A stretch of 64,000 bases of DNA from positions 3,042,198 to 3,106,197 of the forward strand of contig OZ223471.1 of the NCBI GenBank assembly GCA_965140775.1, given 5' to 3'. Both the position numbers and the translations under genes were made by a program. Each line of letters opens with the position of its first letter. Position 1 is the stretch's first letter. The notes under the pieces are model-generated. The model worked only from the letters and a program-made list of their open reading frames with translations, was not told where the DNA came from and did not search any database. Shown one piece after another: positions 10,397 through 29,448 of this stretch. Origin of the DNA: Bacteroidales bacterium. GTDB taxonomy: Bacteria; Bacteroidota; Bacteroidia; Bacteroidales; F082.

Positions 10397-10605
10397 AAGC
10401 AATTATCTATTCATTAAATGGTTGCCAAAACAAAAATGGAGTTGTAAACATAGAAAACCGCTTTACACGGTGGAAGTGATGGCAGTAGCAGGAGATGTTT
10501 TCGTTTGGTGAGATTTCAATCTTCCAAAACGAAATAAGTCCTTAATGGTCAGTGTATAAAAGTGGATATAAAAATACAAAAAATCTGATTCGTGACAAAC
10601 AGAGG

Positions 10606-13890: not shown

Positions 13891-13927
13891 GTTGGTTCGA
13901 TGGGGTTTTTCTTATTACAATATATAA

Positions 13928-16731: not shown

Positions 16732-17841
16732 CTACTCCCACCCAAATCCATAAACCCGGCCGTCTTCGGCACCCACCACCATCAATTTATTAACAATAGC
16801 AGGAGTGCTGCTTATCGGGCTTCCGATTTCGTAGGACCAAATTTTTTGTCCGGCGTACATATCCAACAGGTATATTCGTCCGTCTTTGGAGGTGATGACC
16901 ACCTGATTTCCGGCGATTACCGGAGAGCTTTCTATTTTACCGAGGGTAACAAATTCCCACAAAATCTTGCCGGTATCGCCATCATAGGCATATACTTTTT
17001 TGTTTTGAGAACCAATAACGACGATGTTGTCTGAAGTGGCAGGCGAGCCAAGAAATGGTCCTGCACCCGGAACTTTCCAAAGGGCTTTTTTGCTGGAAAT
17101 ATCCACTTTGTAAAACACGCCATCGTAATTGCCAAAATAGGCCATGGGGCCCACCATGCATGCTGACGAGGCAATATAGGTACCGATTTCCACGGTATCT
17201 GCAATTGTTCCCGAAATCACATCCACCAAGTGCAACATACCGTCGCATCCGCCGAAGACTGCTTCCTTTCCGTTGGTGGCGGGAGTTCCGTTGATGTAGT
17301 TATCGGTTTCGTATTTCCAAAGTGGTTGTCCCGTAAGGGCATCCACACAATGAAGGTAATAATCGTAACTCCCGAAAATCAGATTTTGGCTTTTATCGTC
17401 GGCAGCAAGCGTCCAATTGGCAGCGCCGGATATCTGTCCTTCAGTAGCATAGTGCCATTTTTCGGATCCCGTTTTGGCATCCAACGCAAACATGATTCCC
17501 TCCAAAGAGCCCACAAAAACCGTTTGATCGAGAAACAAAGGAGGTGCTTCGATGGAGGTTTCAGTGGAAAACCGCCAAACCTCTTTGCCTTCAGCTGATA
17601 AGCAGTAAAGCGACCCTCCATTGGTTCCGATAAAAATATGGCCGTCAGCTATTATCGGTGAGGATTTGATGATGTCGTCGGTTTGAAAACTCCAAAGAAG
17701 CGCAGGATTATCCGGAATGGCGACATGGGTTGTTCCCGTCAGGGCAGGATTTCCGCGGTATGAAGGCCAACTATCTTGCTGTGCCTTTCCTGAAAAGGAA
17801 CACGAAATTATAATCAACCATATGATTATCAATCTATCCAT
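16732..17841 (-). CDS. PQQ-like beta-propeller repeat protein, secreted
   Basis: 369 aa with a signal peptide, the entry motif WPSYRGNPALTG, and repeated blade motifs (G..F.G, G...W). It overlaps the upstream gene by 8 nt. Confidence 0.8.
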   Translation of the reverse strand: MDRLIIIWLIIISCSFSGKAQQDSWPSYRGNPALTGTTHVAIPDNPALLWSFQTDDIIKSSPIIADGHIFIGTNGGSLYCLSAEGKEVWRFSTETSIEAPPLFLDQTVFVGSLEGIMFALDAKTGSEKWHYATEGQISGAANWTLAADDKSQNLIFGSYDYYLHCVDALTGQPLWKYETDNYINGTPATNGKEAVFGGCDGMLHLVDVISGTIADTVEIGTYIASSACMVGPMAYFGNYDGVFYKVDISSKKALWKVPGAGPFLGSPATSDNIVVIGSQNKKVYAYDGDTGKILWEFVTLGKIESSPVIAGNQVVITSKDGRIYLLDMYAGQKIWSYEIGSPISSTPAIVNKLMVVGAEDGRVYGFGWE

Positions 17842-19411
17842 CTAATTCATTTTTTAAAGCGATGGCGCCGGTTGGACAAGCGTTGGCACATCGGAGGGCA
17901 GTTTGGTCGAGCAAATCGGACATCGACTTATTGAGGGGCATGCCCATTTCTACCTCGAATCCACGATGAACGGAAGTGAATCCCAGCCGATCCTGCTCTT
18001 TTTCCGATATTTGAACACAGATATTGCACTTTATGCATTTTTCAGGTTCGTAAATGATCAGGTGATGCTGTTCGAATTTTCGTACTGGCTCCCGTTCCCC
18101 ATAAGAGAACATCCTCCTATCCACCCGGTATTCATCGGAATAGTTCCTAAGCTTACAGGTATGCGGCTTTCGGCAATCGCAATGCAAACACCTGCTTGCT
18201 TCAATCCGGGCTTGCTCAATGGTGAGCGATCCTTTGGTTTGAACACGGGGTGACCAACCACTTTCGGTCACAATTTCTTTTTGGTATTCAGCTACTTCCT
18301 CCTCGAAAAGTTTTCCAAATTTTGAGTTAAACTTGCGGTGAATTTTTCCCGGAGGCGATCCTTGAAGGTAGAGATCGACGGAATGTGCCGCGGCTTTTCC
18401 CTGTGCCACGGAAGTTACAGCCATTCGGCGTGAACGGATGATATTCCCACAGGCAAAAACGCCCTGCTCATCTACCTGCATGGTATCGCGGTTGACCGTC
18501 AATCCCTGTGAATCGTGGGGTAATCCAAAAGAGGACAATGGAGCCTCCTGAAAATCGCCTGTAGCCAGCACCACCGCATCAAAATTCTTTTTCAATTCAT
18601 TTTCAAAGAGTTCCCTGTTAATGTCGTAATTCATAATGAATGTGGCGCCCAAGGTTTTCAACAGATCAATTTCCGCATCCAACGCCGACCTAGGCAATTT
18701 TTCCTCCGGAATGGCATATCTCAATGCTCCACCCGCTTTCGGATGTTTGTCGTACAGCACACAACCATGACCCATGGTCAACAAAAAGTAAGCACACGAC
18801 AGACCGGCCGGACCCGTACCAACGATGGCGACCTTTTTGCCCGAAGGTGGACTTTTCTGTGGAAGATAAGCATCTGATCCGGCCAAATCTTCATCTGCTA
18901 CCAAATGTTTTAACTTACAAATGGAAACCGGCTCGTCCACCTGCCCCCGGCGGCAAGCTTTTTCGCAGGGAGCCGGACAGATATATCCCAAAATCAGGGG
19001 CAAGGCAATTTCCTCTTTCACCACTTTCAGGGCTTCGGTCAATTTTCCGTTGGAGATTAACCTGTTCATTTTGGGGATGTCCATGAACGCGGGACAGCTC
19101 GTCCGGCACGGAGCCTCGCAGTCGCCCACATGGTCGCTGAGCAGCAATTCCAGCGCTTCTTTGCGCGATTCGATGATTTCCTCGTCATGGGTGATGATTT
19201 CCAGTCCGTTTTCAGCTTTCAATGCACACGAAGGATGAATCTTTCCTGTTTTGGCATCCTTCACCACACACAACATGCACGAAGGATGGGTGGGCAATCC
19301 CTCGAGATAACACATGGTAGGAATTTGGATACCCGCCTGTCGGGCAGCTTCCAGCACGGTAGTTCCGTCCGGTACTTGCACCAGTATATTATTGATTGTC
19401 AGATCTATCAT
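17834..19411 (-). CDS. multidomain Fe-S flavoprotein: N-terminal 2Fe-2S ferredoxin domain, GltD-like FAD/NAD(P)H oxidoreductase, C-terminal Cys-rich 4Fe-4S region
   Basis: The sequence MIDLTINN..VPDGTTVLEAA...MCY resembles a NuoG/HydA N-terminal fold. The dinucleotide motif KKVAIVGTGPAGLSCAYFL is present, as are GltD-like CP.PCE.AC cluster motifs and a C-terminal CIKCNIC...CANACPTGAI. The ATG at 19411 forms an ATGA overlap with the NuoEF-like stop. Confidence 0.8.
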   Translation of the reverse strand: MIDLTINNILVQVPDGTTVLEAARQAGIQIPTMCYLEGLPTHPSCMLCVVKDAKTGKIHPSCALKAENGLEIITHDEEIIESRKEALELLLSDHVGDCEAPCRTSCPAFMDIPKMNRLISNGKLTEALKVVKEEIALPLILGYICPAPCEKACRRGQVDEPVSICKLKHLVADEDLAGSDAYLPQKSPPSGKKVAIVGTGPAGLSCAYFLLTMGHGCVLYDKHPKAGGALRYAIPEEKLPRSALDAEIDLLKTLGATFIMNYDINRELFENELKKNFDAVVLATGDFQEAPLSSFGLPHDSQGLTVNRDTMQVDEQGVFACGNIIRSRRMAVTSVAQGKAAAHSVDLYLQGSPPGKIHRKFNSKFGKLFEEEVAEYQKEIVTESGWSPRVQTKGSLTIEQARIEASRCLHCDCRKPHTCKLRNYSDEYRVDRRMFSYGEREPVRKFEQHHLIIYEPEKCIKCNICVQISEKEQDRLGFTSVHRGFEVEMGMPLNKSMSDLLDQTALRCANACPTGAIALKNELDG

Positions 19412-21741
19412 AGGATTACTACCGCGTTTACCGGACAAATCCGGCGACATATGTCACATTGAATACATTTTTCCTGATCCACCACATGCACCTGATAGGG
19501 TTGGAAGGCGATGGCATCTGTGGGACAATCGACGGCACACTTGGTACAGCCGATACAATCATCAGTGATCTGATAGTGAACCAGGGCTTTACACTTTCCT
19601 GACCTACACTTGCCTTCAATATGATCCAGGTATTCTTGCCGGAAATAGGTGAGTGTGGACAACACCGGATTGGGAGCAGTTCTGCCCAGACCGCACAGAC
19701 TTCCCTTTTGGGTGCTGTAGGCCAATTTTTCGAGGGTAAGGAGGTCTTCGGGTTTTCCATCTCCGGTACATATTTTATCGAGAATTTCAAGCATGCGGCG
19801 GGTGCCTATCCGGCAAAAGGTACACTGTCCGCACGACTGATCCTGGGTAAACGACAAAAAATACCGCGCCATGTCCACCATGCAATCGTCTTCATCCAGC
19901 ACCACCAGACCACCTGAACCCATCATGGCACCCACCGATGAAAGCGATTCAAAATCAATGGGGGTATCGGCCAAAGAAGCCGGAATACAACCTCCCGAAG
20001 GACCCCCAATTTGCACCGCCTTGAACACTTTTCCGTTGGGAATGCCGCCGCCGATTTTCTCCACAATCTCTCGGATGGTAATGCCCATGGGCACTTCGAT
20101 GAGACCGCCACGGTTGATTTTTCCTGCCAAAGCAAATACTTTGGTTCCCTTGCTATCGCCACTTCCGATGGAGGCAAAAGCGGGTGCGCCATGCCGGATG
20201 ATCCAGGAAATCAGCGAGAAAGTTTCGGTATTGTTGATGAGGGTGGGTTTACCCCACAGGCCTTGTTCGGACGGATAGGGAGGTCGCAAACGTGGGATAC
20301 CCCGGTTTCCCTCCACAGAGGCGATGAGGGCCGTTTCTTCGCCACAGATAAATGCTCCTGCCCCTTCAAAAACTGATAGCTCAAAGGAGAAATCAGTATG
20401 TAATATCTTACTGCCCAGCAAGTTGCTTTGTTCGCAGAGTTGCAATGCCTGTTTGATACGTTTTACGGCCAATGGATATTCGGCACGGATGTACAGAATT
20501 CCCCGGTTGGCACCCACGGCATAAGCGGCGATAATCATTCCTTCGATCACCCGAAAGGGGTACGACTCCAACAGCATGCGGTCCATGAAAGCCCCGGGGT
20601 CACCTTCGTCGCCATTGCAAATCACATACTTTTGGTCGGAGATTTCCTGCTGAACCAAAGACCACTTGGTACCGGTTGAGAAACCACCTCCTCCCCTTCC
20701 GCGAAGCCCGCTTTGCTTGATGATGTCAACAATTTCTTCAGGAGTTTGTTTGAGACATGTCTTGAGTGCCTCGAATCCTCCCAGACTAAGGTATTCGTTT
20801 AAATCAACGGGACTGATCATGCCACGATGCTCCGTGGCCAGATTTACCTGTCCGGCCAAAAACTCCGCCACGGGTGTATCTTGTTGGTCGCCGGCATATT
20901 TTTGGGTGAATTTGGGTACCCCATTGATTACATGATCATTAACAAAAGCATTAAGATTGGTAACGGTACGTCGCCAAAGGTTTTTCGATTTGAAATGCTT
21001 TCGGATGATGTCGTTGACTTCCCGTGCCTCAATTTTGGTATAAAAATAAGGTGTTTCGTTGGGTTTATGAATTTCCAGTAAAGGAACCTGATTGCATATT
21101 CCCACACAACCCACCTGTTTCACCTCCACGTTAGATTTGTTGGCGGCAAGAGACTGTTCCAAAGCAACTTTAACATCTGAGCTTCCGCTGGCCACACAGC
21201 AAGACCCCAGACCAATGCGGATTTCACCTTCCGACTCCTTGGTTGTTGCTGCCCGTTTACTGTCGCCAACCGTATCGCCATCCTTTGTTGTGAGAAACTC
21301 TTCCAGAATCTCTCCTACCCTACCCGGCTCCACATGTCCAAAGGTATGTTGATCTATTTGAACTGCAGGAGCAATGGTACAACACCCCAGACAGGCAACT
21401 TTTTCAACGGTAAAAAGGCCTTCAGCATCTGTATCTTCATTTTCATTCAGGTTTAAATGCCGCTTAAACGCATCGTAAACCTGCATGGCACCCTTCACAT
21501 GACAGGCCGTTCCCACGCATACCTTAATCATATGCTTTCCAACAGGTTGATGCCGGAATTGGTTGTAAAAAGTGGAAATGCCATAAATTCTTGAAAGGCT
21601 GATGTCGGTGGTTTCGGCCACACGAATCAGGGCCTCTTCCGGCAGATAATGATAAACAGCCTGAATGGCTTGCAAAATCGGGATTACCGACTCCACTGCG
21701 CGTCCATTTTCGGCGATGATCTTATCTACAACTTCCTTCAT
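19408..21741 (-). CDS. NuoE-NuoF fusion-type NAD(P)H dehydrogenase flavoprotein (HydB-like) with extra 2Fe-2S and 2x[4Fe-4S] domains
   Basis: NuoE-like cysteines (CVGTACHVKG...CLGCC). NuoF motifs GLRGRGGGGFSTGTKW, CNGDEGDPGAFMDR and SCGQCTFCR. C-terminal CIGCTKCAVDCP and CIQCDICRRICP. Confidence 0.85.
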   Translation of the reverse strand: MKEVVDKIIAENGRAVESVIPILQAIQAVYHYLPEEALIRVAETTDISLSRIYGISTFYNQFRHQPVGKHMIKVCVGTACHVKGAMQVYDAFKRHLNLNENEDTDAEGLFTVEKVACLGCCTIAPAVQIDQHTFGHVEPGRVGEILEEFLTTKDGDTVGDSKRAATTKESEGEIRIGLGSCCVASGSSDVKVALEQSLAANKSNVEVKQVGCVGICNQVPLLEIHKPNETPYFYTKIEAREVNDIIRKHFKSKNLWRRTVTNLNAFVNDHVINGVPKFTQKYAGDQQDTPVAEFLAGQVNLATEHRGMISPVDLNEYLSLGGFEALKTCLKQTPEEIVDIIKQSGLRGRGGGGFSTGTKWSLVQQEISDQKYVICNGDEGDPGAFMDRMLLESYPFRVIEGMIIAAYAVGANRGILYIRAEYPLAVKRIKQALQLCEQSNLLGSKILHTDFSFELSVFEGAGAFICGEETALIASVEGNRGIPRLRPPYPSEQGLWGKPTLINNTETFSLISWIIRHGAPAFASIGSGDSKGTKVFALAGKINRGGLIEVPMGITIREIVEKIGGGIPNGKVFKAVQIGGPSGGCIPASLADTPIDFESLSSVGAMMGSGGLVVLDEDDCMVDMARYFLSFTQDQSCGQCTFCRIGTRRMLEILDKICTGDGKPEDLLTLEKLAYSTQKGSLCGLGRTAPNPVLSTLTYFRQEYLDHIEGKCRSGKCKALVHYQITDDCIGCTKCAVDCPTDAIAFQPYQVHVVDQEKCIQCDICRRICPVNAVVIL

Positions 21742-21753
21742 TCAAATAACTCC

Positions 21754-23688
21754 CTAATTTCCAATACAAAACAAATGATCATTCCCACGAATATAGATTC
21801 GGCCATCTGCAAAAGCAGGGGTAGTCATACATTTCTCACCCAAGGGCGAATCTGCCAGCAAGTTAAACTCCCGTTCGGCACCAAAAACGTGCATGATACC
21901 GGCCATATCCATCAAATATATTTTTCCTTCTGCCAACATGGGCGATGAATAGAACCCGTTGTCGAACTCATGTTCCCATAAAATTTCTCCTGATTTGGCA
22001 TCATAGCAAACCATCACGCCATAGCTGGTAGCCATGAACAACAAACTTTCGGTGGCCACGGGACTGGGAACATCCGACAGATATTCGTCGCTTTCCCATA
22101 GAATTTCAGGAGATTCGCCCAATTGAATGGCCACCAGGCGGGCATATTCATTCACGGCATACACCACCCCATCGGCATAAGCCGCCGACGGACCCACTTC
22201 GCCAAAAATACAATTCAGTTCCCAGTTTAACTTTCCCGTCAACGGATCGAACGACGAGACCATGGGGTCGGCCACCGTAATTATTTCAGTACGATTACCG
22301 ATATTTACCACGATAGGCGAAGCCCAGGAAATTTTCACCTTGTGTTCAGTCTCCCAAACGGTTGCTCCCGTGAGTACAGAAAGCCCCATGAGTTTGGGAG
22401 CGGATTTGATATCGTATTGCAGAATCAACATATCCTGATACAATATAAGTGAGGAGGAGTGGCCGTAATGATTGCCGGTGGGACCCATATTTTTCGCCCA
22501 AAGTTGCCGGCCTTCCATGTCGAGCGCAATCAAATCACCATTGGCAAAAATGGCAAACACCCGCTGTCCGTCGGTAGTTAAGGATGGCGCCGCCTGTCCG
22601 GTATCCTCGGTAACTTTGGGCGCAGTGGGAGGAGAACCCGGTATTCCGGAAACCTGAGTTGTCCACAAAAATTCACCCGTATTTCGATCCAGACAATAGA
22701 CCTCCCGCTGAGCCGAATTGGCTCCCGACACGAAAAGCTTATCGCCCCAAATAATGGGCGAATTATAGCCATGTAAGGGGATTTTTACTTTCCACAGGAT
22801 GTTTTCTCCCGTGACACCATCCCAGTCAACAGGAATATTTTTACGATGGGAAATACCGTTTCCAAAGGGTCCGCGAAAGGAAGGATGATTGCTGAGAATT
22901 TCCTTTTCGGTGGGGAAAGCAGGGACAGTTTTGGGTTGATCAGGTATCCCGGTTGATTTGGCTTTTTCTTCTTGTTTAGGCTTTTTGGGTTGCTCTGTAA
23001 CGACTGCTTCCGTATTTTTCTCCGGATTTTTTATGGGTGCAACAACAGCAGCAGGTTCCTCAGTTTGACTTTCCGTAACAACTGAATTTTCTTCGGATAC
23101 TCCCAAGTTTTCAGGTTGAGGCGATTCTTCTTCCAAAACAGGGTTTTGAACAGGTGTGGATGCCGAATTATTTGAATTTTCGGAAGCAGAGGCCATCAGT
23201 TGATTGGCCAATGAGTCGGATAGTTGCAAATGCGTTAACAGGGCAAAGACAAAAGCAATAACTACCAGAGCTCCACCGCTGATGGCCACCCATTTTCGGG
23301 CCTTTTGTTGTTCAAAAAATGTATTTTCCTTTTCAGACATCTCCACCTCTCTGGCGGCATTTGTGTGCATCATCTGCATGGCCAGCACCAACACCACCAC
23401 ACTGATCAACAACAAATAACCACCGGTTCTGACCTGCCACTGATTGGTAAAATATGCCTTACGCGCCAGCAAATCAACGGTTCGTATTTGCTCACGCAAC
23501 TGCACATCGTCGGGGTTGGCATTCAGACGTTGCACCAGCGCATTGATCATCTCCGTTTCCACAGGATCCATGCGTTTGTATTGAGCATAATTCACAATCA
23601 ATAAGATGGATATGACGAAAGCAAAAGCTCCGGCAATTTGTGCCAAAAGTTTCCAGAAATTGCTATGCACGCTCCTATTTTGTGTCAT
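21754..23688 (-). CDS. membrane-anchored PQQ-like beta-propeller (3 TM helices, ~100-aa acidic/Pro-rich linker, propeller)
   Basis: 644 aa. The N-terminus has hydrophobic helices, followed by a low-complexity E/P/K/T/V linker, then PSFRGPFGNG and propeller blades. Confidence 0.8.
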   Translation of the reverse strand: MTQNRSVHSNFWKLLAQIAGAFAFVISILLIVNYAQYKRMDPVETEMINALVQRLNANPDDVQLREQIRTVDLLARKAYFTNQWQVRTGGYLLLISVVVLVLAMQMMHTNAAREVEMSEKENTFFEQQKARKWVAISGGALVVIAFVFALLTHLQLSDSLANQLMASASENSNNSASTPVQNPVLEEESPQPENLGVSEENSVVTESQTEEPAAVVAPIKNPEKNTEAVVTEQPKKPKQEEKAKSTGIPDQPKTVPAFPTEKEILSNHPSFRGPFGNGISHRKNIPVDWDGVTGENILWKVKIPLHGYNSPIIWGDKLFVSGANSAQREVYCLDRNTGEFLWTTQVSGIPGSPPTAPKVTEDTGQAAPSLTTDGQRVFAIFANGDLIALDMEGRQLWAKNMGPTGNHYGHSSSLILYQDMLILQYDIKSAPKLMGLSVLTGATVWETEHKVKISWASPIVVNIGNRTEIITVADPMVSSFDPLTGKLNWELNCIFGEVGPSAAYADGVVYAVNEYARLVAIQLGESPEILWESDEYLSDVPSPVATESLLFMATSYGVMVCYDAKSGEILWEHEFDNGFYSSPMLAEGKIYLMDMAGIMHVFGAEREFNLLADSPLGEKCMTTPAFADGRIYIRGNDHLFCIGN

Positions 23689-23709: not shown

Positions 23710-24981
23710 TTAGCTATCTTTTTGTACAGGACAATAATCCATACATCGGGCACAACTCAAGCAAGTTCCTTTGTTGGGCTCATAATCTTTTCTGAATTTA
23801 AAGGTGGACAATTGGGCCAACGTCAATCCAAAAACTAGTCCCAAAAAACCTCCCAGCCACATGCTGCCCACCCGAAATTTGTTCAATAGGTCATGTGATT
23901 CGGCCATCAGGGTTTCACGGCTTTTTCCGGATGCCCTGAAAGCCTCTACCTCAATGGAAACTTCTGTGTTATTTTCCGTTGAATTGCTCAACAACATGAC
24001 CTCTTGTGCCAAACGAATTTTTGGATGAACCAGGGCCAGTTTTTCATGAAATTGCGCTCCCGTCCATACCCCGAGCACAACCAAGAATGGAATGATGGCG
24101 GCCAAGGCCAAAAAGCGCCTGGATGTTACCTTGGGCGATTCTTTCAACCGGACAGATTCGGGTTGTTCGATGGCTCCGAAAGGACAGGAATTTTCGCACA
24201 AGCGACATTGAATACATTTGGAGGGCGTGATGGTGAGGTGATATTTTGAGATGCGGCTCGTGAGGTTGAGCAATACGCCATAGGGACAAAAAAACCGACA
24301 GTAGGGCCGTGCAATGAAAACGCTGGTCAGTAAAAAAATGGCACCTAAAGCAATCATGGTAAATGTGCCATCCAAGCGAAATATCCCGATAAATGGATCG
24401 TACCGACAAATGACAAAATCGGTGGCCGTAGCTGCATAAAGCACTGCCAATCCGAGATAGATAAACGGAATCAATCCCAACAAAGTTTGCAACCACGATC
24501 GCAACTGAATTGGTTTCCAAACAAATAAATCCTGTATGGCACCCAACGGACAAACTCCGGCACAAAACACCCGTCCGAAAAGAAGGGAAAACACCAACGG
24601 AAGAATAAAAAAGGCCAATACCGTAACCGGAATTTTATATCCCGGCTCGAACAATGCCAGTGCGATATTTTGTACTGATCCTACCGAACAAACACACCCT
24701 TCGCGAAAAAACCCAAAATACCCGATGGAGAACACCGACACCAACAGCACACCCACGCGGGAACGCTTTTTCAATACCAACCAGGTTACCAACGACAACG
24801 CCAGCAACAACACCAAAACATCCAAATACTCCAGATAATTGGACCGTGCAGCAGGAATCTGGGTAATTTTTTGCACATAACCCGACTCAAACTCCGGCTT
24901 GGGAAAACGTTGGGCCTGTGCTACGACTCCTTGAATCATGGCCAAAAATAACACGCCTATTTTACTTGTCAGGTTTTTCAT
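23710..24981 (-). CDS. NapH/NosR/MauN-type integral-membrane polyferredoxin
   Basis: Two CX3CP motifs lie in TM-flanking positions (FCAGVCPLG, CRFFCPYG). Ferredoxin motifs CIQCRLCENSCP and CLSCARCMDYCP are present. The start is set at ATG 24981, 4 nt after the upstream stop, because the longer track ORF would overlap the ferredoxin gene. Confidence 0.8.
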   Translation of the reverse strand: MKNLTSKIGVLFLAMIQGVVAQAQRFPKPEFESGYVQKITQIPAARSNYLEYLDVLVLLLALSLVTWLVLKKRSRVGVLLVSVFSIGYFGFFREGCVCSVGSVQNIALALFEPGYKIPVTVLAFFILPLVFSLLFGRVFCAGVCPLGAIQDLFVWKPIQLRSWLQTLLGLIPFIYLGLAVLYAATATDFVICRYDPFIGIFRLDGTFTMIALGAIFLLTSVFIARPYCRFFCPYGVLLNLTSRISKYHLTITPSKCIQCRLCENSCPFGAIEQPESVRLKESPKVTSRRFLALAAIIPFLVVLGVWTGAQFHEKLALVHPKIRLAQEVMLLSNSTENNTEVSIEVEAFRASGKSRETLMAESHDLLNKFRVGSMWLGGFLGLVFGLTLAQLSTFKFRKDYEPNKGTCLSCARCMDYCPVQKDS

Positions 24982-24985
24982 GGAG

Positions 24986-25561
24986 TTACGAATTTTTGGA
25001 TACCAACCCTTTAAAGATACTGCTTTCGCTTGCCGGCACACGACTAAATGCATCGGCCGGACAATCACGGGCGATCGCACACTCGTTGCAGTTGACACAA
25101 ATATCCTGACGCACTTGCAGTTGTAGGGAACCATTGCCAAAAGCACTGCATCCGGCCACACACTTTCCACAGCCGATGCACAAATCTTCGTCGATGGTAT
25201 ATTCATAAAAGGGGTCTTCCACAAACTTCCGTTGAATGGCAGCGGTGGGGCAAAGCTGGTTTTCGGCGGCCGTGGTGAGTTGGGAAGTGCCCGGACGGAA
25301 ATATCCGCCGCATAAATTGCAATAACCACACATATCGAAAACATGTACACATTTTACGGCAGAGGGGGTGAGAACACAATGGGTGGCACATTGACCACAT
25401 TGTACGCATTTGGCCGGATCCAACTGCCAGACCAGCTCTTCGGTTGAAGCGTTTTTGGCCAGAAAAATGCCTACCCCACCCAAAGCCACGCCTGCCGTAA
25501 TCCGGAGACTGCTGAACAGAAATTCTCTGCGGGTGGTGCTATGGTCTTTATTTTCTGACAT
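24986..25561 (-). CDS. Tat-exported poly-[4Fe-4S] ferredoxin (NapG/MauM-like)
   Basis: Twin-arginine motif TRREFLF followed by a hydrophobic region. Cys clusters CVQCGQCATHC, CGYCNLCGG, CIGCGKCVAGC and CVNCNECAIARDCP. The start is ATG 25561. Confidence 0.8.
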   Translation of the reverse strand: MSENKDHSTTRREFLFSSLRITAGVALGGVGIFLAKNASTEELVWQLDPAKCVQCGQCATHCVLTPSAVKCVHVFDMCGYCNLCGGYFRPGTSQLTTAAENQLCPTAAIQRKFVEDPFYEYTIDEDLCIGCGKCVAGCSAFGNGSLQLQVRQDICVNCNECAIARDCPADAFSRVPASESSIFKGLVSKNS

Positions 25562-25757
25562 GCAATTCGCGTTTGATGAATTCGTCGGCTTGGGGCAAAC
25601 CGCATGTTGTGAGCTTTTTGCAGTTGCGGCAAACAAAATCGAAAGTACATGTTTCACCGGTTTCCTCTTTCAGCAGCAAATAACCACTTCCCACGGCAAT
25701 TGCCCCGAAAGTCATGTTTCGCAATACTTTTTTCAAAAATGTTCTCCTGTTTACCAT
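25548..25757 (-). CDS. small Tat-signal protein with a Cx5Cx2Cx5C motif (about 69 aa)
   Basis: MVNRRTFLKKVL is a near-consensus S/T-R-R-x-F-L-K motif, followed by the hydrophobic region FGAIAVGSGYLLL and then ETCTFDFVCRNCKKLTTCGLP. The ORF overlaps the ferredoxin gene start by 14 nt. The track ORF begins 3 codons earlier at a TTG. Confidence 0.6.
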   Translation of the reverse strand: MVNRRTFLKKVLRNMTFGAIAVGSGYLLLKEETGETCTFDFVCRNCKKLTTCGLPQADEFIKRELHVRK

Positions 25758-25768
25758 AGCCCCCAAAT

Positions 25769-26740
25769 TTACAAACTATTGTGCTGAAAGACCCTAATCT
25801 TTCGCTGTTTTGGGTCGAGAACAATGATTTTTTGTTCTGAATCCACCGCCAAATCAAGACCCGTGGTTCCCTTTTCAAACTGATGGGGTGCCGCCACCAC
25901 ACAACTAAAACTGCCATCAGGGCGATGTATTTTTATTCTGACCAGCCCTTTTTCGCTGGTAACGAAGGAACCGTCCGAAAGCAGGGCAATATGTGAAGGG
26001 TTACAGCAACCACTAAATCCCTCAAGGGTCATGGAAGTTTTGGTCCAGGAAGATAACAATCTACCGGAAGGGTCGTAGGCTTCAAGTTGGTGCATACCCG
26101 AATTGACCACCCACAACTCACCATCTCTGCCCGGAGCCACGTCGAAATAGGCGCTGGGAATCACAAAGCCGGGGATGCCACGAAGGCTGTCTTTTCTTCC
26201 AATTTCATTGATGAAATCGCCATTCAGGTTGTAGTGATATACCACTTTGTTTCCGGCATCAGCCACAAAAACCGACGAATCGGAAACGGCGATGCTCGTA
26301 ATAAATACATTCTCGTTTCTGGTTTCCCAAACGGCTTTTTGAATCCCGTCTTGTGTCCAGCTTTCCAGGTGATCCAGTGCGCCCAGCAGGATATCACCGT
26401 CATCGGCAACCGCCAACGCTGTGGTTTCAACACCCGTATAAATTGTTTTTTGAACCTGACCATTTTCATTGAAAATCAAAAAGCTATCCTTACCCCCCAC
26501 GTAAATATGGTCCAGATTATCCAAAGCAAGTGCATGTGGAGCTTGTAATCCAATGGGGAAACTCATGACTTCATGGTAGCAAATCAAAGACGAATCAACC
26601 TCTTCGTAATCCGTGATATTAAACTGATACACATTTTTTTGTGGCGTATCAAAACCACCGAAAAAGTCGTAAGCCATCAAGGCAACAATGATCAGGATAA
26701 CGACAACCGCAAGTAAAACGATCCATTTATTTTGTTTCAT
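25769..26740 (-). CDS. NHL-repeat six-bladed beta-propeller protein with N-terminal membrane anchor
   Basis: 323 aa. The anchor is WIVLLAVVVILIIVALMAY. NHL-like blade repeats are visible (D..G.I.V.D..N..V..F). A vicinal Cys pair occurs in GCCNPSHIAL. Confidence 0.7.
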   Translation of the reverse strand: MKQNKWIVLLAVVVILIIVALMAYDFFGGFDTPQKNVYQFNITDYEEVDSSLICYHEVMSFPIGLQAPHALALDNLDHIYVGGKDSFLIFNENGQVQKTIYTGVETTALAVADDGDILLGALDHLESWTQDGIQKAVWETRNENVFITSIAVSDSSVFVADAGNKVVYHYNLNGDFINEIGRKDSLRGIPGFVIPSAYFDVAPGRDGELWVVNSGMHQLEAYDPSGRLLSSWTKTSMTLEGFSGCCNPSHIALLSDGSFVTSEKGLVRIKIHRPDGSFSCVVAAPHQFEKGTTGLDLAVDSEQKIIVLDPKQRKIRVFQHNSL

Positions 26741-26751
26741 GGTCTTAAATT

Positions 26752-28182
26752 TTAGTGTTTACGCAGATCCAGACACACCATTTGTTTTGAATCGCGCATG
26801 AGCAGCCTACCGTCGGCAATGGCAATGGGTCCCCAGGCATCCTGCCCCTGGATGATTCGTTTTTTGTCCAGCACCTCAAATCCGGAAACAGAGGCACGGG
26901 CAATGGTCATGGTTCCATCATCACTCAAGATGAAAAACTTGCCATCGGCCATGATGTAAGGTCCCAGTCCGAAGCGTTCCTTTTTACCACTCGTCCACAG
27001 GATATCCTGAACATCATCGGGCGCACAGCAAGCCAGTTGGTTTCGGTTCATACCGGCATCCTTGGGCAAGATAATAAACAGACGGTTGTTCCAAAAAATG
27101 GCCGTTTGTTGCTCAGAAGCAATGCCTTCCTTGGGTTTAAATTGTTGAAGCATGTTGGCAGAAAACCTACCTACCCTTTCAGTTACCTGAAAAAGCACTG
27201 ACCCCGCGCCATAACCTGCCGTCATGAAAATTTTACCTTCCGGTAAAAGAAGCGGTGAAGGAGCCACGACGTTGGGAGCGAAATCGGTAAATTTCCACAA
27301 TATGGAACCCATGTCTTTACCCGTGGCCGAAACGCCACAAATTCCACCCACAGCGGCATACACGTACATTTTCTTTCCGTTGAAGGTCATGGGCATGATG
27401 GATGAATGTGACATTTGCCAATGGTCCGGGTTGGGGGTCTCCCAAACAACCTTCCCTGTGGCGCAATCCACCGCCACCAAAAGCGCACTGCCTCCGGGAG
27501 CAAGAATGGCCAGGCCGGAGTCAATGAGCGGACATTGTCCGGTGTACCAAAAAGGGATTTCCGTGTGATAGGTTTTCACCATATCCAGTCCCCAAATCAG
27601 GTCGCCTGAAACAGGATTACAACACATCACATGACCCAAAGGACCGATGGTTAAAACAAAATCATCCGTTACCACCGGAACCGTGCGCGACATGCCATGG
27701 TTTCGCTTTACATGAACAGAGTAACTCCTTCGCCACAATTCCTCCCCCGTTTCCAGCGAGAAACATCGGAGGGCGACTGCTTTTTCATCCTCCAAATAAT
27801 CAAGGAGATACACTTTTCCGTTGTATATGGCAGGAGCCGCATGTCCTTCACCCAAATCCACTTTCCATTTGATTTCGACATTGCCTTCAGGAAATCGATC
27901 AATCAATGGGATGTTTTCTTTGTTGATGTTGTCGAAATCGCTTCCGCGAAAGCGTGACCACTTGCCTTTTAATGACGAATCCTCGCTTAAAAAGTGTTGA
28001 AATTTCTCACCAATAACCACCACCTGAGTGCTTTCGGCAAGGCTATCGGGCCGATCGTCCATACCCGGAATGCTCTTGCTAAAATCGCCAACAGGATCGT
28101 ACACCACCCAAAAGATAACCAATACCAAGCCTACAAAGCTGATGATAAGCAAGAGGTATTTTTCTTTGGAGAAAGAGAGCAT
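26752..28182 (-). CDS. PQQ-like beta-propeller with N-terminal membrane anchor
   Basis: The anchor YLLLIISFVGLVLVIFWVV is followed by the WSRFRG entry motif and propeller blades. Vicinal Cys pairs occur in VMCCNPVSG and LACCAPDD. ATG 28182 is preferred; TTG 28206 is possible. Confidence 0.75.
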   Translation of the reverse strand: MLSFSKEKYLLLIISFVGLVLVIFWVVYDPVGDFSKSIPGMDDRPDSLAESTQVVVIGEKFQHFLSEDSSLKGKWSRFRGSDFDNINKENIPLIDRFPEGNVEIKWKVDLGEGHAAPAIYNGKVYLLDYLEDEKAVALRCFSLETGEELWRRSYSVHVKRNHGMSRTVPVVTDDFVLTIGPLGHVMCCNPVSGDLIWGLDMVKTYHTEIPFWYTGQCPLIDSGLAILAPGGSALLVAVDCATGKVVWETPNPDHWQMSHSSIMPMTFNGKKMYVYAAVGGICGVSATGKDMGSILWKFTDFAPNVVAPSPLLLPEGKIFMTAGYGAGSVLFQVTERVGRFSANMLQQFKPKEGIASEQQTAIFWNNRLFIILPKDAGMNRNQLACCAPDDVQDILWTSGKKERFGLGPYIMADGKFFILSDDGTMTIARASVSGFEVLDKKRIIQGQDAWGPIAIADGRLLMRDSKQMVCLDLRKH

Positions 28183-28224
28183 TTCCGGAGCAGTTATTAT
28201 TTCCAAGCGACTTGTTAAGCCGAT

Positions 28225-29448
28225 CTATTTTTGTGCGATATCATACACCATGAGGGAAGTTCCGTGACGGACATACAATTTTTTATCATGAATTACCAGG
28301 TGTGCCCAATGGTACTGTTCGCCGTAAGGCACTTCAAAGGAGCTGATCAGGTTAAAATCATTTGTTTTGGGATCAACGATTCCCACTTTACCACCTGTGC
28401 CATAACAATATAAGAGTCCATCGGCATAGATAATAATACCTACTTTCAGCATCTTAGAGGAATACAACTCCTCCCCTGTTTCCCAATCCAGACAAAACCA
28501 ACTCTTGTTTTTATCACCTGAACCGTAAATGCGTCCATCTACCAAAACCACACCGCCCATCTTGCTGTCGAGAGACGAATTTCGCCACAGTTCAGTGATG
28601 GAGTTGCCATCTTCGGAAACCTGAAGCATAACACCTCCTTTTCCATAACCACTAAAGCAGTATAATTTTCCATCTTTATAAACGGGCGAATTGGCTTGCA
28701 CCGACCAGGTATTGGGATGCTCGAGACTCCACAACAATTTTCCCGTTGAGGCTTCAAATCCCAAAATGGAATTGGCTGTTTGGGTCACAATAATTTTACG
28801 ACCACCTACCTCGATCGCAATGGGAGAGCAATAGGCGCTCAATTCTTCCAAACCCTTGGATTTCCAAATCAACTCGCCGGAATCTTTGTTTAGCGCAATC
28901 ACGTTGGCCTCTAATCCGCCGGGAGTGACGTATAATTTTCCATCATCGATGAGGAGGTTTTCGGTTACACCCCATTTAATATTTCGTCCATCATAATCGT
29001 TGAAAAGATCAACTGTCCATTCGATTTTTCCGGATTTTGCAGACATGCAAACAAGCTTTCCAAATGAGCTCATGATGTAAAGTTTACCATCGTAAACCAA
29101 TGGGGTAGAACGTGTTCCTTCAAAACTCTCCATCCACTCCGGTCCAAAATCTGTTTTCCATTTCAAGTGGCCTTGATGATCGAGTGCCACCACAAATCCA
29201 ATACCCTCGGGGCTTGTTCCGGCAGTGTAAACCATTTCATTGGTTACGGCTGCAGAAGCATGACCCGGACCTAAATCATCATAATGCCATAAGAGCATGG
29301 GACCCTCTACAGGCCATTCCTTTAAAAGACCTGTTTCATGATAGATTCCGTCACGGTTGTCGCCACGCCATTGAGCAATTTCCTGGGATTCGACATGGGT
29401 TTGCAGTAAGAAGATCAACCCGACAAATAACAGTGTTATTTTACGCAT
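28225..29448 (-). CDS. PQQ-like beta-propeller repeat protein, secreted (first gene of the operon)
   Basis: 407 aa with a signal peptide, the AQWRGDNRDG entry motif, and repeated G.LY/G..LW blades. Confidence 0.8.
   Translation of the reverse strand: MRKITLLFVGLIFLLQTHVESQEIAQWRGDNRDGIYHETGLLKEWPVEGPMLLWHYDDLGPGHASAAVTNEMVYTAGTSPEGIGFVVALDHQGHLKWKTDFGPEWMESFEGTRSTPLVYDGKLYIMSSFGKLVCMSAKSGKIEWTVDLFNDYDGRNIKWGVTENLLIDDGKLYVTPGGLEANVIALNKDSGELIWKSKGLEELSAYCSPIAIEVGGRKIIVTQTANSILGFEASTGKLLWSLEHPNTWSVQANSPVYKDGKLYCFSGYGKGGVMLQVSEDGNSITELWRNSSLDSKMGGVVLVDGRIYGSGDKNKSWFCLDWETGEELYSSKMLKVGIIIYADGLLYCYGTGGKVGIVDPKTNDFNLISSFEVPYGEQYHWAHLVIHDKKLYVRHGTSLMVYDIAQK

What the first reader, a model, noticed from the sequence alone, without database searches (positions are those of the whole stretch)
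25548..25757. About 69-aa ORF with a near-consensus twin-arginine signal and a Cx5Cx2Cx5C mature region, overlapping the ferredoxin gene
Seen:
- The sequence is MVNRRTFLKKVL, then a hydrophobic region, then ...ETCTFDFVCRNCKKLTTCGLPQADEFIKRELHVRK.
- After any signal cleavage only about 40 residues with four Cys would remain.
- The stop lies 14 nt inside the next gene, which suggests translational coupling.

Established knowledge:
- Tat export is normally reserved for folded, cofactor-loaded proteins.
- Small Tat-exported subunits that carry crosslinked or cofactor-bearing Cys/Trp residues are known, for example MauA, which sits next to a propeller heavy chain and MauMN-type proteins.

Inference:
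- The peptide could be a mini metal or Fe-S carrier.
- It could be a crosslinked cofactor subunit that docks into one of the propellers.
- It could be a Tat hitch-hiking or anchor subunit.
- It has no Trp and no E-x3-Y, so a TTQ- or PQQ-type quinone precursor is not supported.
Basis: partly seen in the sequence, partly recalled or inferred. Interest (0 to 1): 0.65.

Follow-up and report, generated by a model that had tools for sequence, protein, structure and literature searches.

The report
Small Tat-anchored four-cysteine redox subunit
This is a real, strongly conserved 69-residue gene for a membrane-anchored mini-protein with an RseC-type four-cysteine (probably iron-sulfur) motif; it partners the NapG-like ferredoxin of a widespread, uncharacterised Bacteroidota electron-transfer operon and founds a protein family that no database yet describes.

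Summary
A 69-codon ORF lies on the minus strand at 25548-25757 and reads MVNRRTFLKK...; it carries Cx5Cx2Cx5C, and its stop lies 14 nt inside the next gene.

It is a genuine gene. dN/dS is about 0.13. It sits at the same position (NHL protein, small ORF, NapG-like ferredoxin, NapH-like protein) in about 77 of 84 related Bacteroidota loci. An exhaustive profile search found 1693 clusters of 58-93 aa proteins. None is named, and none matches Pfam or NCBIfam.

Family signature:
- RRxF[ILF]...R
- a 16-residue hydrophobic helix with a conserved Gly and no AxA site
- C-x5-C-x2-C-x5-C-x-LPEA, with the last three Cys invariant
- a basic tail

In two genomes the small protein is fused in frame to the mature ferredoxin and replaces the ferredoxin's own Tat signal.

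The Cys motif, and its conservation pattern, is that of E. coli RseC. RseC's motif reconstitutes an O2-sensitive [4Fe-4S] cluster, and RseC binds the polyferredoxin RsxB. The small protein is not an RseC family member: architecture and topology differ and the profile scores are sub-threshold.

Best reading: a Tat-type signal-anchored, periplasm-facing Fe-S (or metal) mini-subunit of a NapGH-like transmembrane electron conduit. The cofactor and the Tat dependence are inferred, not shown. A crosslinked-cofactor or propeller-docking role is not supported.

The parts
25548..25757 (-). Small ORF, 69 aa (ATG at 25757, stop at 25548-25550): founding member here of an unannotated family of 58-93 aa proteins.
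   Evidence: dN/dS 0.13-0.18. No Pfam or NCBIfam match.
25719..25757 (-). n-region MVNRRTFLKKVLR: twin-arginine motif plus a second conserved Arg (R13). This is the NapG/MauM-type signal pattern RRxFLxxxxR.
   Evidence: Family frequencies: R4 94%, R5 73% (K 22%), F7 93%, I/L/F8 96%, R13 95%. hhalign against the ferredoxin's Tat signal: probability 94%, E 9.5e-8. Aligns to E. coli NapG GRRRFLRDVVRTA.
25671..25718 (-). 16-residue uncharged hydrophobic segment NMTFGAIAVGSGYLLL (Tat h-region, probably a retained membrane anchor). There is no AxA cleavage site.
   Evidence: AF2 helix 4-29 with pLDDT above 90. Median length 16, mean Kyte-Doolittle hydrophobicity 1.8; N-flank net charge +2.9 against C-flank 0. 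G25 85%, L27 77%.
25602..25649 (-). Cys motif CTFDFVCRNCKKLTTC (C37-x5-C43-x2-C46-x5-C52), the putative [4Fe-4S] or metal site.
   Evidence: C43, C46 and C52 are 100% conserved, C37 96%. 141 of 146 representatives have this spacing. E. coli RseC has the same spacing, and that motif binds an O2-sensitive [4Fe-4S] cluster (PMC11729352).
25587..25598 (-). Conserved L-P-(E/Q)-A box directly after Cys4. It starts the C-terminal amphipathic, basic helix.
   Evidence: L 76%, P 80%, E/Q 75%, A 79%. AF2 helix 55-67.
25548..25561 (-). 14-nt overlap between the end of the small ORF and the start of the ferredoxin gene.
   Evidence: The same overlap occurs in L001, L004, L008 and L011. Overlaps of 2-20 nt occur in 26 of 75 loci.
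24986..25561 (-). NapG-like polyferredoxin, 191 aa. It has a Tat signal and 16 Cys in four [4Fe-4S] motifs, plus one extra Cys. It is the partner of the small protein.
   Evidence: Fer4 domains. hhalign against E. coli NapG: probability 92% over 165 columns. 6285 homologues. Cys conservation. Fused to the small protein in L076 and L077.
23710..24975 (-). NapH/NosR-like integral membrane Fe-S protein, 421 aa (Fer4_5, two CX3CP motifs, split 2x[4Fe-4S] domain).
   Evidence: TIGR02163 napH E 4.9e-14, below its cutoff. Synteny.
25769..26740 (-). Membrane-anchored NHL six-bladed propeller with a conserved GCCNPS motif. It is the upstream neighbour, 11 nt from the small ORF.
26752..29448 (-). Two BamB/PQQ_2-type beta-propeller genes at the head of the operon (484 aa and 407 aa).
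16732..23688 (-). Distal part of the operon: TM-anchored PQQ_2 propeller (644 aa), NuoE-NuoF fusion (777 aa), HoxU/GltD-like Fe-S flavoprotein (538 aa) and a further PQQ_2 propeller (369 aa).
   Evidence: The order is conserved in about 80 loci.

Best explanation
SHOWN.
- The ORF is a protein-coding gene under purifying selection.
- It belongs to a large, unannotated family of 58-93 aa proteins.
- In Bacteroidota (and neighbouring FCB-group MAGs) it sits almost invariably between a membrane-anchored NHL propeller gene and a NapG-like Tat ferredoxin gene. These lie inside an 11-13 gene operon: propellers, NHL, small ORF, NapG-like, NapH-like, propeller, NuoEF, GltD-like, propeller.
- In two genomes it is fused in frame to the mature ferredoxin and replaces that protein's own Tat signal.

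INFERRED ANATOMY.
- The N-terminus is cytoplasmic and carries a NapG-type RRxF(L/I)...R motif.
- One short hydrophobic helix follows. It has no signal-peptidase site and carries conserved Gly and Leu, so it probably remains as a Tat-type signal anchor packed against the NapH-like membrane subunit.
- About 39 residues then face the periplasm. They fold into a small helical knot around C-x5-C-x2-C-x5-C-x-LPEA.

INFERRED MECHANISM.
- The cysteines ligate an oxygen-labile [4Fe-4S] cluster (or a similar metal centre) that is inserted in the cytoplasm. This would explain why so small a domain keeps a Tat signal.
- The mini-domain docks at the N-terminal end of the ferredoxin, next to its first cluster. 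There it extends, caps or gates the Fe-S wire. That wire runs between the cytoplasmic NAD(P)H module (NuoEF/GltD-like), the NapH-like protein and the NapG-like ferredoxin on one side, and the periplasmic propeller proteins on the other.
- Functionally it would be the periplasmic counterpart of RseC. RseC's identical motif binds [4Fe-4S] and contacts the polyferredoxin RsxB on the cytoplasmic side.
For: Coding gene:
- dN/dS 0.13-0.18 and third-position bias.
- 74 of 75 complete orthologues have an ATG start.
- Gene callers and NCBI annotate it as a hypothetical protein.
- RNA-seq contigs of a related organism cover 25546-25762.

Family:
- 40 hits by indexed profile search.
- 1693 clusters at E<=1e-3 and 185 at E<=1e-10 by exhaustive search; all of the top 150 are 58-93 aa.
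- 141 of 146 have Cx5Cx2Cx5C and 139 of 146 have exactly 4 Cys.

Synteny: same position in about 77 of 84 loci.

Physical link to the ferredoxin:
- L076 encodes a 218-aa fusion and L077 another fusion.
- The L077 junction is present without gaps in contigs of two runs from different studies. In the second run, 21 substitutions give only 3 amino-acid changes.

Tat and topology:
- RRxF motif frequencies.
- hhalign of the N-terminal 33 columns against the ferredoxin's Tat signal gives probability 94%.
- The ferredoxin is NapG-like over its whole length, signal included.
- N-flank net charge is +2.9 against 0 for the C-flank, and exceeds it in 209 of 249 sequences. The h-region median is 16 residues with Kyte-Doolittle 1.8.
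- Sub-threshold TAT_signal or TIGR01409 hits occur in 5-12 of 62 members.

Fe-S:
- E. coli RseC has C20-x5-C26-x2-C29-x5-C35.
- In RseC, as here, the last three Cys are conserved and the first is not. The domain reconstitutes an O2-sensitive [4Fe-4S] cluster, and RseC interacts with RsxB and RsxD (PMC11729352).
- rseC lies directly upstream of rnf operons in clostridia (PMC9124969).
- The Pfam RseC_MucC profile aligns exactly to the Cys region in 11 of 62 members, though only at E 0.1-0.7.

Fold: with a 150-sequence alignment AF2 models the Cys region at pLDDT about 84-86 as a compact helical mini-domain.
Against: - Nothing was measured on the protein: no cofactor data, no export data, no proteomic evidence of translation.
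- Tat profile HMMs do not reach their thresholds (10.6 against 22.7 bits; 12 against 16.7 bits).
- The second Arg is Lys in 22% of members, and one clade (Perlabentimonas-like, about 7 representatives) has no RR at all. Tat targeting is therefore not universal.
- Two otherwise complete clusters (L032, L038) and three shortened ones (L045, L074, L085) have no small ORF, so it is dispensable in some lineages.
- Four Cys within 16 residues could equally bind Zn or form two disulfides in the periplasm.
- Similarity to RseC rests on the motif only (hhalign probability 1.3%).
- Foldseek finds no related solved fold.
- I could not read model coordinates, so the Cys geometry is unchecked.
Confidence: 0.5

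Rival explanations
1. Cofactor-less structural subunit. The four Cys bind Zn or form two disulfides, and the protein merely anchors or stabilises the NapG-like ferredoxin on the NapH-like membrane subunit. It would be inserted by Tat together with the ferredoxin, or by Sec/YidC.
For: - The domain is tiny, and a CxxC plus two flanking Cys is typical of Zn knuckles.
- 22% of members have RK and one clade has no RR.
- The gene is missing from some complete clusters.
- The hydrophobic helix has conserved Gly and Leu, suggesting helix packing.
- The fusions show that one signal serves both domains.
Against: - A cofactor-less 39-residue tail would not need a Tat-type signal, yet RRxF is kept in more than 90% of members (RR or RK).
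- The exact motif and conservation pattern match the RseC site, which binds Fe-S experimentally.
- The context is saturated with Fe-S proteins.
Confidence: 0.25
2. RseC-like assembly, regulatory or redox-sensing factor. An O2-labile cluster reports redox state or oxygen and controls assembly or activity of the conduit, rather than carrying electrons in the main path.
For: - RseC is needed for Rsx/Rnf function. It has been discussed as a regulator or stabiliser, and Rnf can assemble without it in some species (PMC11729352 discussion; PMC9124969).
- The small ORF is dispensable in a few clusters.
- The carriers come mostly from sediment, wastewater and bioreactor samples; that they are anaerobes is my assumption, not a test.
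Against: - In-frame fusion to the ferredoxin in two genomes argues for a stoichiometric, permanent partner.
- There is no DNA-binding or signalling domain.
- The predicted location is periplasmic.
Confidence: 0.12
3. Opposite topology. The N-terminal helix is an N-out anchor, and the Cys domain (with the 'NapG-like' ferredoxin) faces the cytoplasm, as in RseC and RnfB.
For: - JGI names the ferredoxin RnfB.
- The fused form (TM, Cys domain, ferredoxin domains) has the RnfB domain order.
- In L077 the ORF runs on into the NapH-like gene across that gene's signal-peptide segment. This is topologically easier if the ferredoxin is cytoplasmic.
Against: - Charge bias is strong: +2.9 before the helix against 0 after it.
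- RRxF(L/I) is conserved in the small protein (R4 94%, R5 73% plus K 22%) and RR is invariant in the ferredoxin.
- The ferredoxin aligns with E. coli NapG from its Tat signal onwards.
- The L077 run-on is explained by loss of a stop codon, with an in-frame internal GTG plus an intact signal peptide for the NapH-like part. In L076 the NapH-like gene is separate.
Confidence: 0.05
4. Precursor of a crosslinked or cofactor-bearing small subunit, or of a released peptide (MauA/QhpC/RiPP-like), that docks into one of the propellers.
For: It is a small Cys-rich Tat-signal protein next to propeller genes and MauM/N-like (NapG/H-like) genes.
Against: - There is no radical-SAM/SPASM, protease or other maturase gene in the conserved operon.
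- There is no conserved Trp, Asp or Glu partner. Only 23 of 146 members contain any Trp.
- There is no leader/core variability pattern.
- The fusions are to the ferredoxin.
- No cleavage site is present.
Confidence: 0.04
5. Not a gene: a chance ORF or an out-of-frame leader of the ferredoxin gene.
For: It is short, has no database family, and overlaps the next gene.
Against: dN/dS is 0.13. The ORF is conserved across about 250 distinct sequences at 22-50% identity with invariant Cys. In most loci it is separated from the ferredoxin gene by an intergenic spacer.
Confidence: 0.01

Closest known systems
RseC / MucC / RnfF N-terminal domain (Pfam PF04246), the SoxR-reducing-system protein RseC
   Same: - Identical Cys spacing, C-x5-C-x2-C-x5-C (E. 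coli RseC C20, C26, C29, C35).
- Same conservation pattern: the last three Cys are conserved, the first is variable.
- A small membrane-anchored protein that partners a polyferredoxin of a membrane Fe-S electron-transfer complex (RsxB). It is often encoded directly upstream of that complex.
- The motif binds an O2-sensitive [4Fe-4S] cluster in vitro.
   Different: - In RseC the Cys domain is N-terminal, cytoplasmic and followed by two TM helices. Here one Tat-like helix precedes a C-terminal, predicted periplasmic Cys domain.
- Profile scores are far below threshold (<=12.9 against 24.4 bits; hhalign probability 1.3%).
- The partner is NapG/NapH-like, not Rnf/Rsx.
NapG / MauM / NosG-type Tat-exported periplasmic polyferredoxins, and their signal peptides
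   Same: The small protein's first ~33 residues match the signal of the neighbouring NapG-like ferredoxin (hhalign probability 94%) and the RRRFLRDVVR segment of E. coli NapG. The operon pairs it with NapG-like and NapH-like genes.
   Different: It has no ferredoxin domain of its own: 39 residues with one 4-Cys site instead of four CxxCxxCxxxC(P) motifs. It has no AxA cleavage site.
Tat signal-anchored Fe-S proteins (Rieske subunit type) and small Tat Fe-S proteins such as HiPIP (comparison from my own knowledge)
   Same: An uncleaved twin-arginine signal serving as an N-terminal membrane anchor for a periplasm-facing Fe-S domain; cofactor loading before export.
   Different: The domain is several-fold smaller than the Rieske or HiPIP domains, and the Cys motif and fold are unrelated. 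Anchor retention is only inferred.
TIGR02811 'formate dehydrogenase region TAT target' small proteins
   Same: Proteins of 70 aa or less with a Tat signal, encoded beside a periplasmic redox enzyme. 15 of 62 members give weak hits through the signal region (best E 3.4e-4).
   Different: The score is 15.6 against a cutoff of 48.45 bits. The match covers only residues 2-36. That family's conserved C-terminal region has no Cys motif (my own knowledge).
Endonuclease III / MutY Fe-S cluster loop (C-x6-C-x2-C-x5-C; Pfam PF10576)
   Same: A compact 4-Cys stretch with the same C-x2-C-x5-C core that ligates a [4Fe-4S] cluster. One member hits PF10576 at E 0.38, and one hits TIGR01084 (mutY) at E 0.0098.
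   Different: The first spacing is x6, not x5. The motif sits inside a large DNA glycosylase. There is no significant similarity.
PF12669 FeoB-associated Cys-rich membrane protein
   Same: Same architecture: about 50-60 aa, one N-terminal TM helix, then a short Cys-rich tail. 5 of 62 members hit the profile, best E 7.1e-5; in the one hit I could inspect the match spans nearly the whole profile.
   Different: The inspected hit is below the gathering score (15 against 27 bits). That family has no twin-arginine motif and a different gene context; that its Cys pattern differs is my recollection, not tested. Its function is unknown.
RnfB/RsxB (for the fused form in L076 and L077)
   Same: Same domain order: TM helix, small Cys-cluster domain, then [4Fe-4S] ferredoxin domains.
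   Different: RnfB has its positive charges after the helix (N-out, cytoplasmic domains; my own knowledge). Here RR precedes the helix, so the topology is predicted to be opposite.

Membership tests
RseC/MucC (PF04246) | Significant match to the family profile (gathering score 24.4 bits) | tested here: not met
   The best hit is 12.9 bits, E 0.11. 11 of 62 members hit, at E>=0.11, and only profile positions 13-29 are matched. hhalign against E. coli RseC gives probability 1.3%.
RseC/MucC (PF04246) | CX5CX2CX5C motif with the last three Cys conserved and the first variable | tested here: met
   C43, C46 and C52 are 100% conserved and C37 96%. The first spacing varies (x5, x4, x3 or absent). RseC sequence; PMC11729352.
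RseC/MucC (PF04246) | Architecture: N-terminal cytoplasmic Cys domain followed by two TM helices | tested here: not met
   A single N-terminal helix (residues 4-29) precedes the Cys motif, and there is no second hydrophobic segment. Charge bias predicts the Cys domain outside the cytoplasm.
RseC/MucC (PF04246) | Works with an Rnf/Rsx complex and contacts its polyferredoxin subunit | tested here: inconclusive
   It is adjacent to, and in two genomes fused with, a polyferredoxin. That protein is NapG-like, and the membrane partner is NapH-like, not Rnf.
RseC/MucC (PF04246) | Binds an oxygen-sensitive [4Fe-4S] cluster | not testable with these tools
   This needs anaerobic purification or reconstitution and spectroscopy.
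Tat (twin-arginine) substrates | Z-R-R-x-hydrophobic-hydrophobic motif in a positively charged n-region | tested here: met
   N/D3, R4 94%, R5 73% (K 22%), F7 93%, I/L/F8 96%. N-flank net charge +2.9.
Tat (twin-arginine) substrates | Short, moderately hydrophobic h-region followed by a basic residue | tested here: met
   Median 16 uncharged residues, mean Kyte-Doolittle 1.8. R/K at position 30 in 84%.
Tat (twin-arginine) substrates | Match to the curated signal models PF10518 / TIGR01409 at threshold | tested here: not met
   10.6 against 22.7 bits, and 12.0 against 16.7 bits. Weak hits in 5 and 12 of 62 members.
Tat (twin-arginine) substrates | AxA signal-peptidase site after the h-region (for cleaved substrates) | tested here: not met
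   The sequence after the helix is K-E-E-T-G-E, with no small-x-small c-region. Residues inside the helix are conserved. This suggests an uncleaved anchor.
Tat (twin-arginine) substrates | Export depends on TatABC; tat genes present in the genome | not tested
   No tat gene was seen among the window genes I scanned.
NapG/MauM ferredoxins (TIGR00397, PRK09476), for the partner gene | Curated family score | tested here: not met
   15.6 against 178.85 bits, and 16.2 against 269 bits. hhalign against E. coli NapG nevertheless gives probability 92% over 165 columns. Hence 'NapG-like', not NapG.
TIGR02811 formate-dehydrogenase-region TAT target | Curated family score (48.45 bits) and the conserved C-terminal region | tested here: not met
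   15.6 bits, and only residues 2-36 (the signal) are aligned.
MauA / QhpC-type crosslinked small subunits and RiPP precursors | Conserved crosslink residues (Trp; Cys plus Asp/Glu) and dedicated maturation genes in the cluster | tested here: not met
   Trp is present in only 23 of 146 members. The operon genes are propellers, the NHL protein, Fe-S proteins and flavoproteins only.
PF12669 FeoB-associated Cys-rich membrane protein | Gathering score of 27 bits | tested here: not met
   The inspected hit scores 15 bits, E 0.03. The best of 62 members has E 7.1e-5, and that member was not identified.

The most novel reading that the evidence does not exclude
The family would be the smallest known class of Tat-targeted iron-sulfur proteins: a ~40-residue, signal-anchored, RseC-type [4Fe-4S] mini-domain working on the periplasmic side. 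It would act as the terminal relay or oxygen-sensitive gate of a previously undescribed, quinone-independent NAD(P)H-to-periplasm electron conduit (NuoEF/GltD-like, NapH-like, NapG-like, small protein, beta-propellers) that is conserved across anaerobic Bacteroidota.
Probability: 0.3. Interest if true: 0.7.

Novelty: new variant of a known kind. Interest (0 to 1): 0.55.

Why it matters
- **An unrecognised family.** It adds a named, testable function to a large family of small proteins (at least 1693 clusters at 50% identity). Gene callers often miss them, and no domain database describes them.
- **A bearing on RseC.** The CX2CX5C/CX5CX2CX5C Fe-S mini-module is so far discussed only for cytoplasmic RseC and RnfF. 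This finding suggests it is a more general accessory of polyferredoxin-based membrane electron-transfer complexes and can work on either side of the membrane. That bears on the still unclear role of RseC itself.
- **An uncharacterised operon.** It flags a highly conserved operon in hundreds of Bacteroidota species: five or six BamB-like propellers plus an NHL propeller, wired through NapGH-like proteins to an NAD(P)H module. The physiological substrate of this operon is unknown. No literature search I ran retrieved a description of it.

Tried and rejected
- **Pfam and NCBIfam at default thresholds:** nothing for the small ORF. At E<=10 there are only sub-threshold hits.
- **Single-sequence indexed search:** only 5 close relatives. 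The family became visible only through synteny and the exhaustive profile search.
- **My own regex screens:** the first screen called 14 loci negative. Re-inspection showed that six carry variant Cys motifs (four Cx3Cx2Cx5C, two lacking the first Cys) and one (L076) carries a fusion that the length filter of a later screen also hid.
- **AF2 with 39 sequences:** no confident fold for the Cys region. With 150 sequences pLDDT rose to 84.
- **PDB sequence search:** only spurious summed hits to C2H2 zinc-finger arrays.
- **Longer ferredoxin homologues (P0116, P0125; 237 aa):** these are over-extended start calls, not fusions.
- **The L077 'triple fusion' with the NapH-like protein:** this is probably a lost stop codon with an internal GTG start, so I do not use it for topology.
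- **Literature searches for the operon:** nothing relevant. The string CX5CX2CX5C occurs in one paper only, the RseC paper.
- **Link between loss of RR and loss of Cys1:** Fisher p = 9e-6, but it comes essentially from one clade, and one clade member keeps four Cys. I give it little weight.
- **Co-folding of the small protein with the ferredoxin or NapH-like protein:** could not be run. The tool folds single chains only, and the natural fusions are not admissible inputs.
Full report
**1. The observation**

The ORF exists as described, on the minus strand. Its ATG is at 25757 and its stop at 25548-25550. It encodes 69 aa: MVNRRTFLKKVLRNMTFGAIAVGSGYLLLKEETGETCTFDFVCRNCKKLTTCGLPQADEFIKRELHVRK. 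The Cys spacing is C37-x5-C43-x2-C46-x5-C52. The next gene is a 191-aa ferredoxin that starts at 25561, so the two genes overlap by 14 nt. The upstream NHL-repeat gene ends 11 nt before the ATG.

**2. It is a real gene**

- Neither Pfam nor NCBIfam recognises the protein.
- An indexed search found five close relatives in which all four Cys are invariant.
- Their contigs show the same gene order and the same 14-nt overlap.
- Against these relatives, nucleotide differences concentrate at third codon positions (39 of 59; 15 of 24), and dN/dS is 0.13-0.18.
- RNA-seq contigs from a related organism cover 25546-25762. This is weak evidence of transcription. I have no evidence of translation.

**3. 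The family, found through synteny**

The ferredoxin has more than 6000 homologues. A scan of one genome per species returned 80 loci, almost all from Bacteroidota MAGs and a few isolates: Perlabentimonas, Labilibaculum, Ancylomarina. L011 (OY781436.1) is 99% identical to the window over the ferredoxin gene (query residues 1-191) and is probably its source.

Immediately upstream of the ferredoxin:
- 70 of 84 loci encode a small protein with Cx5Cx2Cx5C.
- Five more loci have variant Cys motifs: Cx3Cx2Cx5C in L041-L043 and L072, and no first Cys in L031. L033 (Perlabentimonas) also lacks the first Cys of the motif.
- Two loci have in-frame fusions (see section 5); one of them, L077, is already among the 70.
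- L032 and L038 have full clusters without the small ORF.
- L045, L074 and L085 have a shortened cluster without it.
- L013 and L018 lack the upstream part of the cluster altogether.

A profile of 62 of these sequences found 40 database proteins, all of them 'hypothetical'. An exhaustive HMMER search of 1.84 billion cluster representatives found 1693 at E<=1e-3 and 185 at E<=1e-10. All of the best 150 are 58-93 aa.

Over 251 distinct sequences the signature is as follows:

| Position | Conservation |
|---|---|
| R4 | 94% |
| R5 | 73% (K 22%) |
| F7 | 93% |
| I/L/F8 | 96% |
| R13 | 95% |
| G25 | 85% |
| L27 | 77% |
| R/K30 | 84% |
| C37 | 96% |
| C43, C46, C52 | 100% each |
| L54-P55-E/Q56-A57 | 75-80% each |

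A basic tail follows. In one search, 139 of 146 representatives have exactly four Cys.

**4. The surrounding operon**

The gene order is strikingly constant: one to six BamB/PQQ_2-type propellers, a 480-aa propeller, the NHL propeller, the small ORF, the NapG-like ferredoxin, a NapH-like membrane Fe-S protein, a TM-anchored propeller, a NuoE-NuoF fusion, a HoxU/GltD-like Fe-S flavoprotein, and another propeller.

The ferredoxin aligns with E. coli NapG over 165 columns, including the Tat signal (hhalign probability 92%), but it fails NapG's curated thresholds. I read the whole as an Fe-S conduit across the membrane. It would link a cytoplasmic NAD(P)H module to periplasmic propeller proteins. 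The substrate and the direction of electron flow are unknown. None of my literature searches retrieved a description of it.

**5. Natural fusions**

- **L076** has a 218-aa ORF. The small protein (MPDRREFL...CGFDFTCGSCSKSKDCKLPRALESRQ) runs directly into the mature ferredoxin (MVWQLDPSKC...), and the ferredoxin's own Tat signal is gone.
- **L077** has the same kind of junction (...KARSPIT/MVWQLDP...).
- The L077 junction is spanned without gaps by contigs from two sequencing runs of different studies. In the second run, 21 substitutions cause only three amino-acid changes and no stop. The fusion is therefore real DNA under selection.
- The two genomes have closely related ferredoxins, so this is probably one ancestral event.

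The fusions show that the Cys domain and the ferredoxin share a compartment, that one signal suffices for both, and that the Cys domain sits at the ferredoxin's N-terminal end, 19-27 residues before the first Cys of cluster I.

In L077 the ORF also runs on into the NapH-like gene. That gene keeps an in-frame GTG and an intact signal peptide, and in L076 it is separate. I treat the run-on as a lost stop codon, not as evidence about topology.

**6. Targeting and topology (inferred)**

- The N-terminus fits the Tat consensus.
- By profile-profile comparison it matches the Tat signal of the neighbouring ferredoxin (33 columns, probability 94%, E 9.5e-8). It also matches the RRRFLRDVVR segment of E. 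coli NapG.
- The uncharged core is short (median 16 residues) and only moderately hydrophobic (Kyte-Doolittle 1.8). The N-flank carries +2.9 net charge against 0 for the C-flank. This predicts N-in, C-out.
- No small-x-small cleavage site follows the helix, and residues within it are conserved. A retained signal anchor is therefore more likely than a cleaved peptide.

Caveats:
- The Tat HMMs stay below threshold.
- 22% of members have RK.
- One clade has lost RR entirely, mostly together with the first Cys.
- I could not check the genome for tat genes.

**7. The cysteine site**

Weak Pfam hits pointed to RseC_MucC, matching exactly and only the Cys region. E. coli RseC indeed reads C20-DVKAS-C26-SS-C29-ASRAG-C35, the same spacing.

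Lee et al. 2024 (PMC11729352) report four things about RseC:
- The last three Cys are conserved and the first is not. The same holds in this family.
- The isolated domain reconstitutes an oxygen-sensitive [4Fe-4S] cluster.
- RseC interacts with the polyferredoxin RsxB and with RsxD.
- AlphaFold is unsure about this region.

In clostridia, rseC lies directly upstream of the rnf genes and is required for their function (PMC9124969).

The analogy is therefore close in motif, in partner type and in gene position. Membership fails, however: the profile scores are sub-threshold, hhalign probability is 1.3%, the domain order is reversed, there is one helix instead of two, and the predicted side of the membrane is the opposite one.

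The related C-x6-C-x2-C-x5-C loop of endonuclease III and MutY also binds [4Fe-4S] (my own knowledge). Only single, insignificant hits were seen to it.

With a 150-sequence alignment AF2 models the whole protein at pLDDT 84: helix 4-29, short helices at 40-44 and 48-50, and helix 55-67. Foldseek finds no similar solved structure, and the PDB sequence search gives only spurious zinc-finger hits.

**8. Interpretation**

Best-supported: a Tat-type signal-anchored mini-subunit that docks on the NapG-like ferredoxin on the periplasmic side and carries an Fe-S (or other metal) centre on its four Cys.

- Shown: gene status, family, synteny, fusion.
- Inferred: side of the membrane, anchor retention, Tat dependence, cofactor, role in the wire.

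The main rival is a cofactor-less Zn or disulfide structural anchor. An RseC-like regulatory or assembly role is also open. The MauA-like crosslinked subunit, the released peptide and the non-coding leader are poorly supported or refuted.

**9. Novelty and score**

The kind of module is known: the RseC-type CX2CX5C Fe-S mini-domain attached to a polyferredoxin complex. This family is a new variant, with a different architecture, Tat-type targeting, the opposite face of the membrane, a different host complex, and no database entry. Interest is moderate to good (0.55). The family is large, cleanly defined and testable, and it sits in an unexplored conserved operon. Its biochemical role is still inferred, and the concept is an extension rather than a surprise.

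Noticed in passing
window 23710-24975 (-): The NapH-like protein has a Sec-type signal peptide and two CX3CP motifs. Its 2x[4Fe-4S] ferredoxin domain appears split: CIQCRLCENSCP, then two extra TM helices with a ~70-aa loop, then CLSCARCMDYCP at the extreme C-terminus.
   Followed up: partly
window 25769-26740 (-); orthologues in L032-L085: The membrane-anchored NHL propeller carries a vicinal Cys pair in a conserved motif, GF(S/A/C)GCCNP(S/V/I). It appears in every orthologue printed. This is reminiscent of the vicinal disulfide near PQQ in methanol dehydrogenase (my own knowledge). Its function is unknown.
   Followed up: no
window 24986-25561 (-), residue C71: Besides 16 Cys in four cluster motifs, the ferredoxin has a 17th Cys (KC71VHV), conserved in 78 of 84 loci. 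It could be an extra ligand or a partner for the small protein.
   Followed up: partly
window 9161-10402, 16732-17841, 21754-23688, 26752-29448 (all -): There are five BamB/PQQ_2-type propeller genes in and around one operon. The copy number of the 407-aa paralogue varies from 1 to 6 between genomes. Weak hits to the 'acido-empty-quinoprotein' family suggest PQQ-less propellers.
   Followed up: partly
window 10606-15897 (-): A glycosyltransferase (429 aa), an ABC ATPase (227 aa) and an unusually long FtsX-type permease (1094 aa) follow the redox operon. The glycosyltransferase is syntenic in many loci.
   Followed up: no
window 30747-41414 and 41604-51884 (-); 29610-30734 (-): Two giant ORFs (3555 and 3426 aa) with many tandem ~80-residue repeats lie next to a PorP/SprF gene. 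I take them for PKD-like repeats and T9SS cargo by eye, without a test. Long antisense ORFs inside them (32481-33851 +, 43338-44708 +) are probably composition or repeat artefacts. The PorP N-terminus contains an (LS)n run.
   Followed up: no
L077 9812-11761: The ferredoxin part of the fused ORF has no stop codon and runs in frame into the NapH-like gene. That gene keeps an internal GTG (10460) and its signal peptide. A second, independent metagenome contig shows the same open frame.
   Followed up: partly
L031 9785-9973; L033 8466-8669; P0155-P0158, P0219, P0222: The Perlabentimonas-like clade of the small protein has lost the twin arginine (MSKNTLNKVLR...). Most members have also lost the first Cys (SPSPCSTCSKVSSC), while the neighbouring ferredoxin keeps RR. 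P0219 keeps a KR pair, and P0222 keeps four Cys without RR.
   Followed up: partly
L008 1587-2384; L010 2763-3560: An AraC-type regulator (DUF6597 plus HTH_18) is encoded divergently upstream of the operon in two distant genomes. It is not present at that position in the window, where a PorP/SprF gene lies instead.
   Followed up: no
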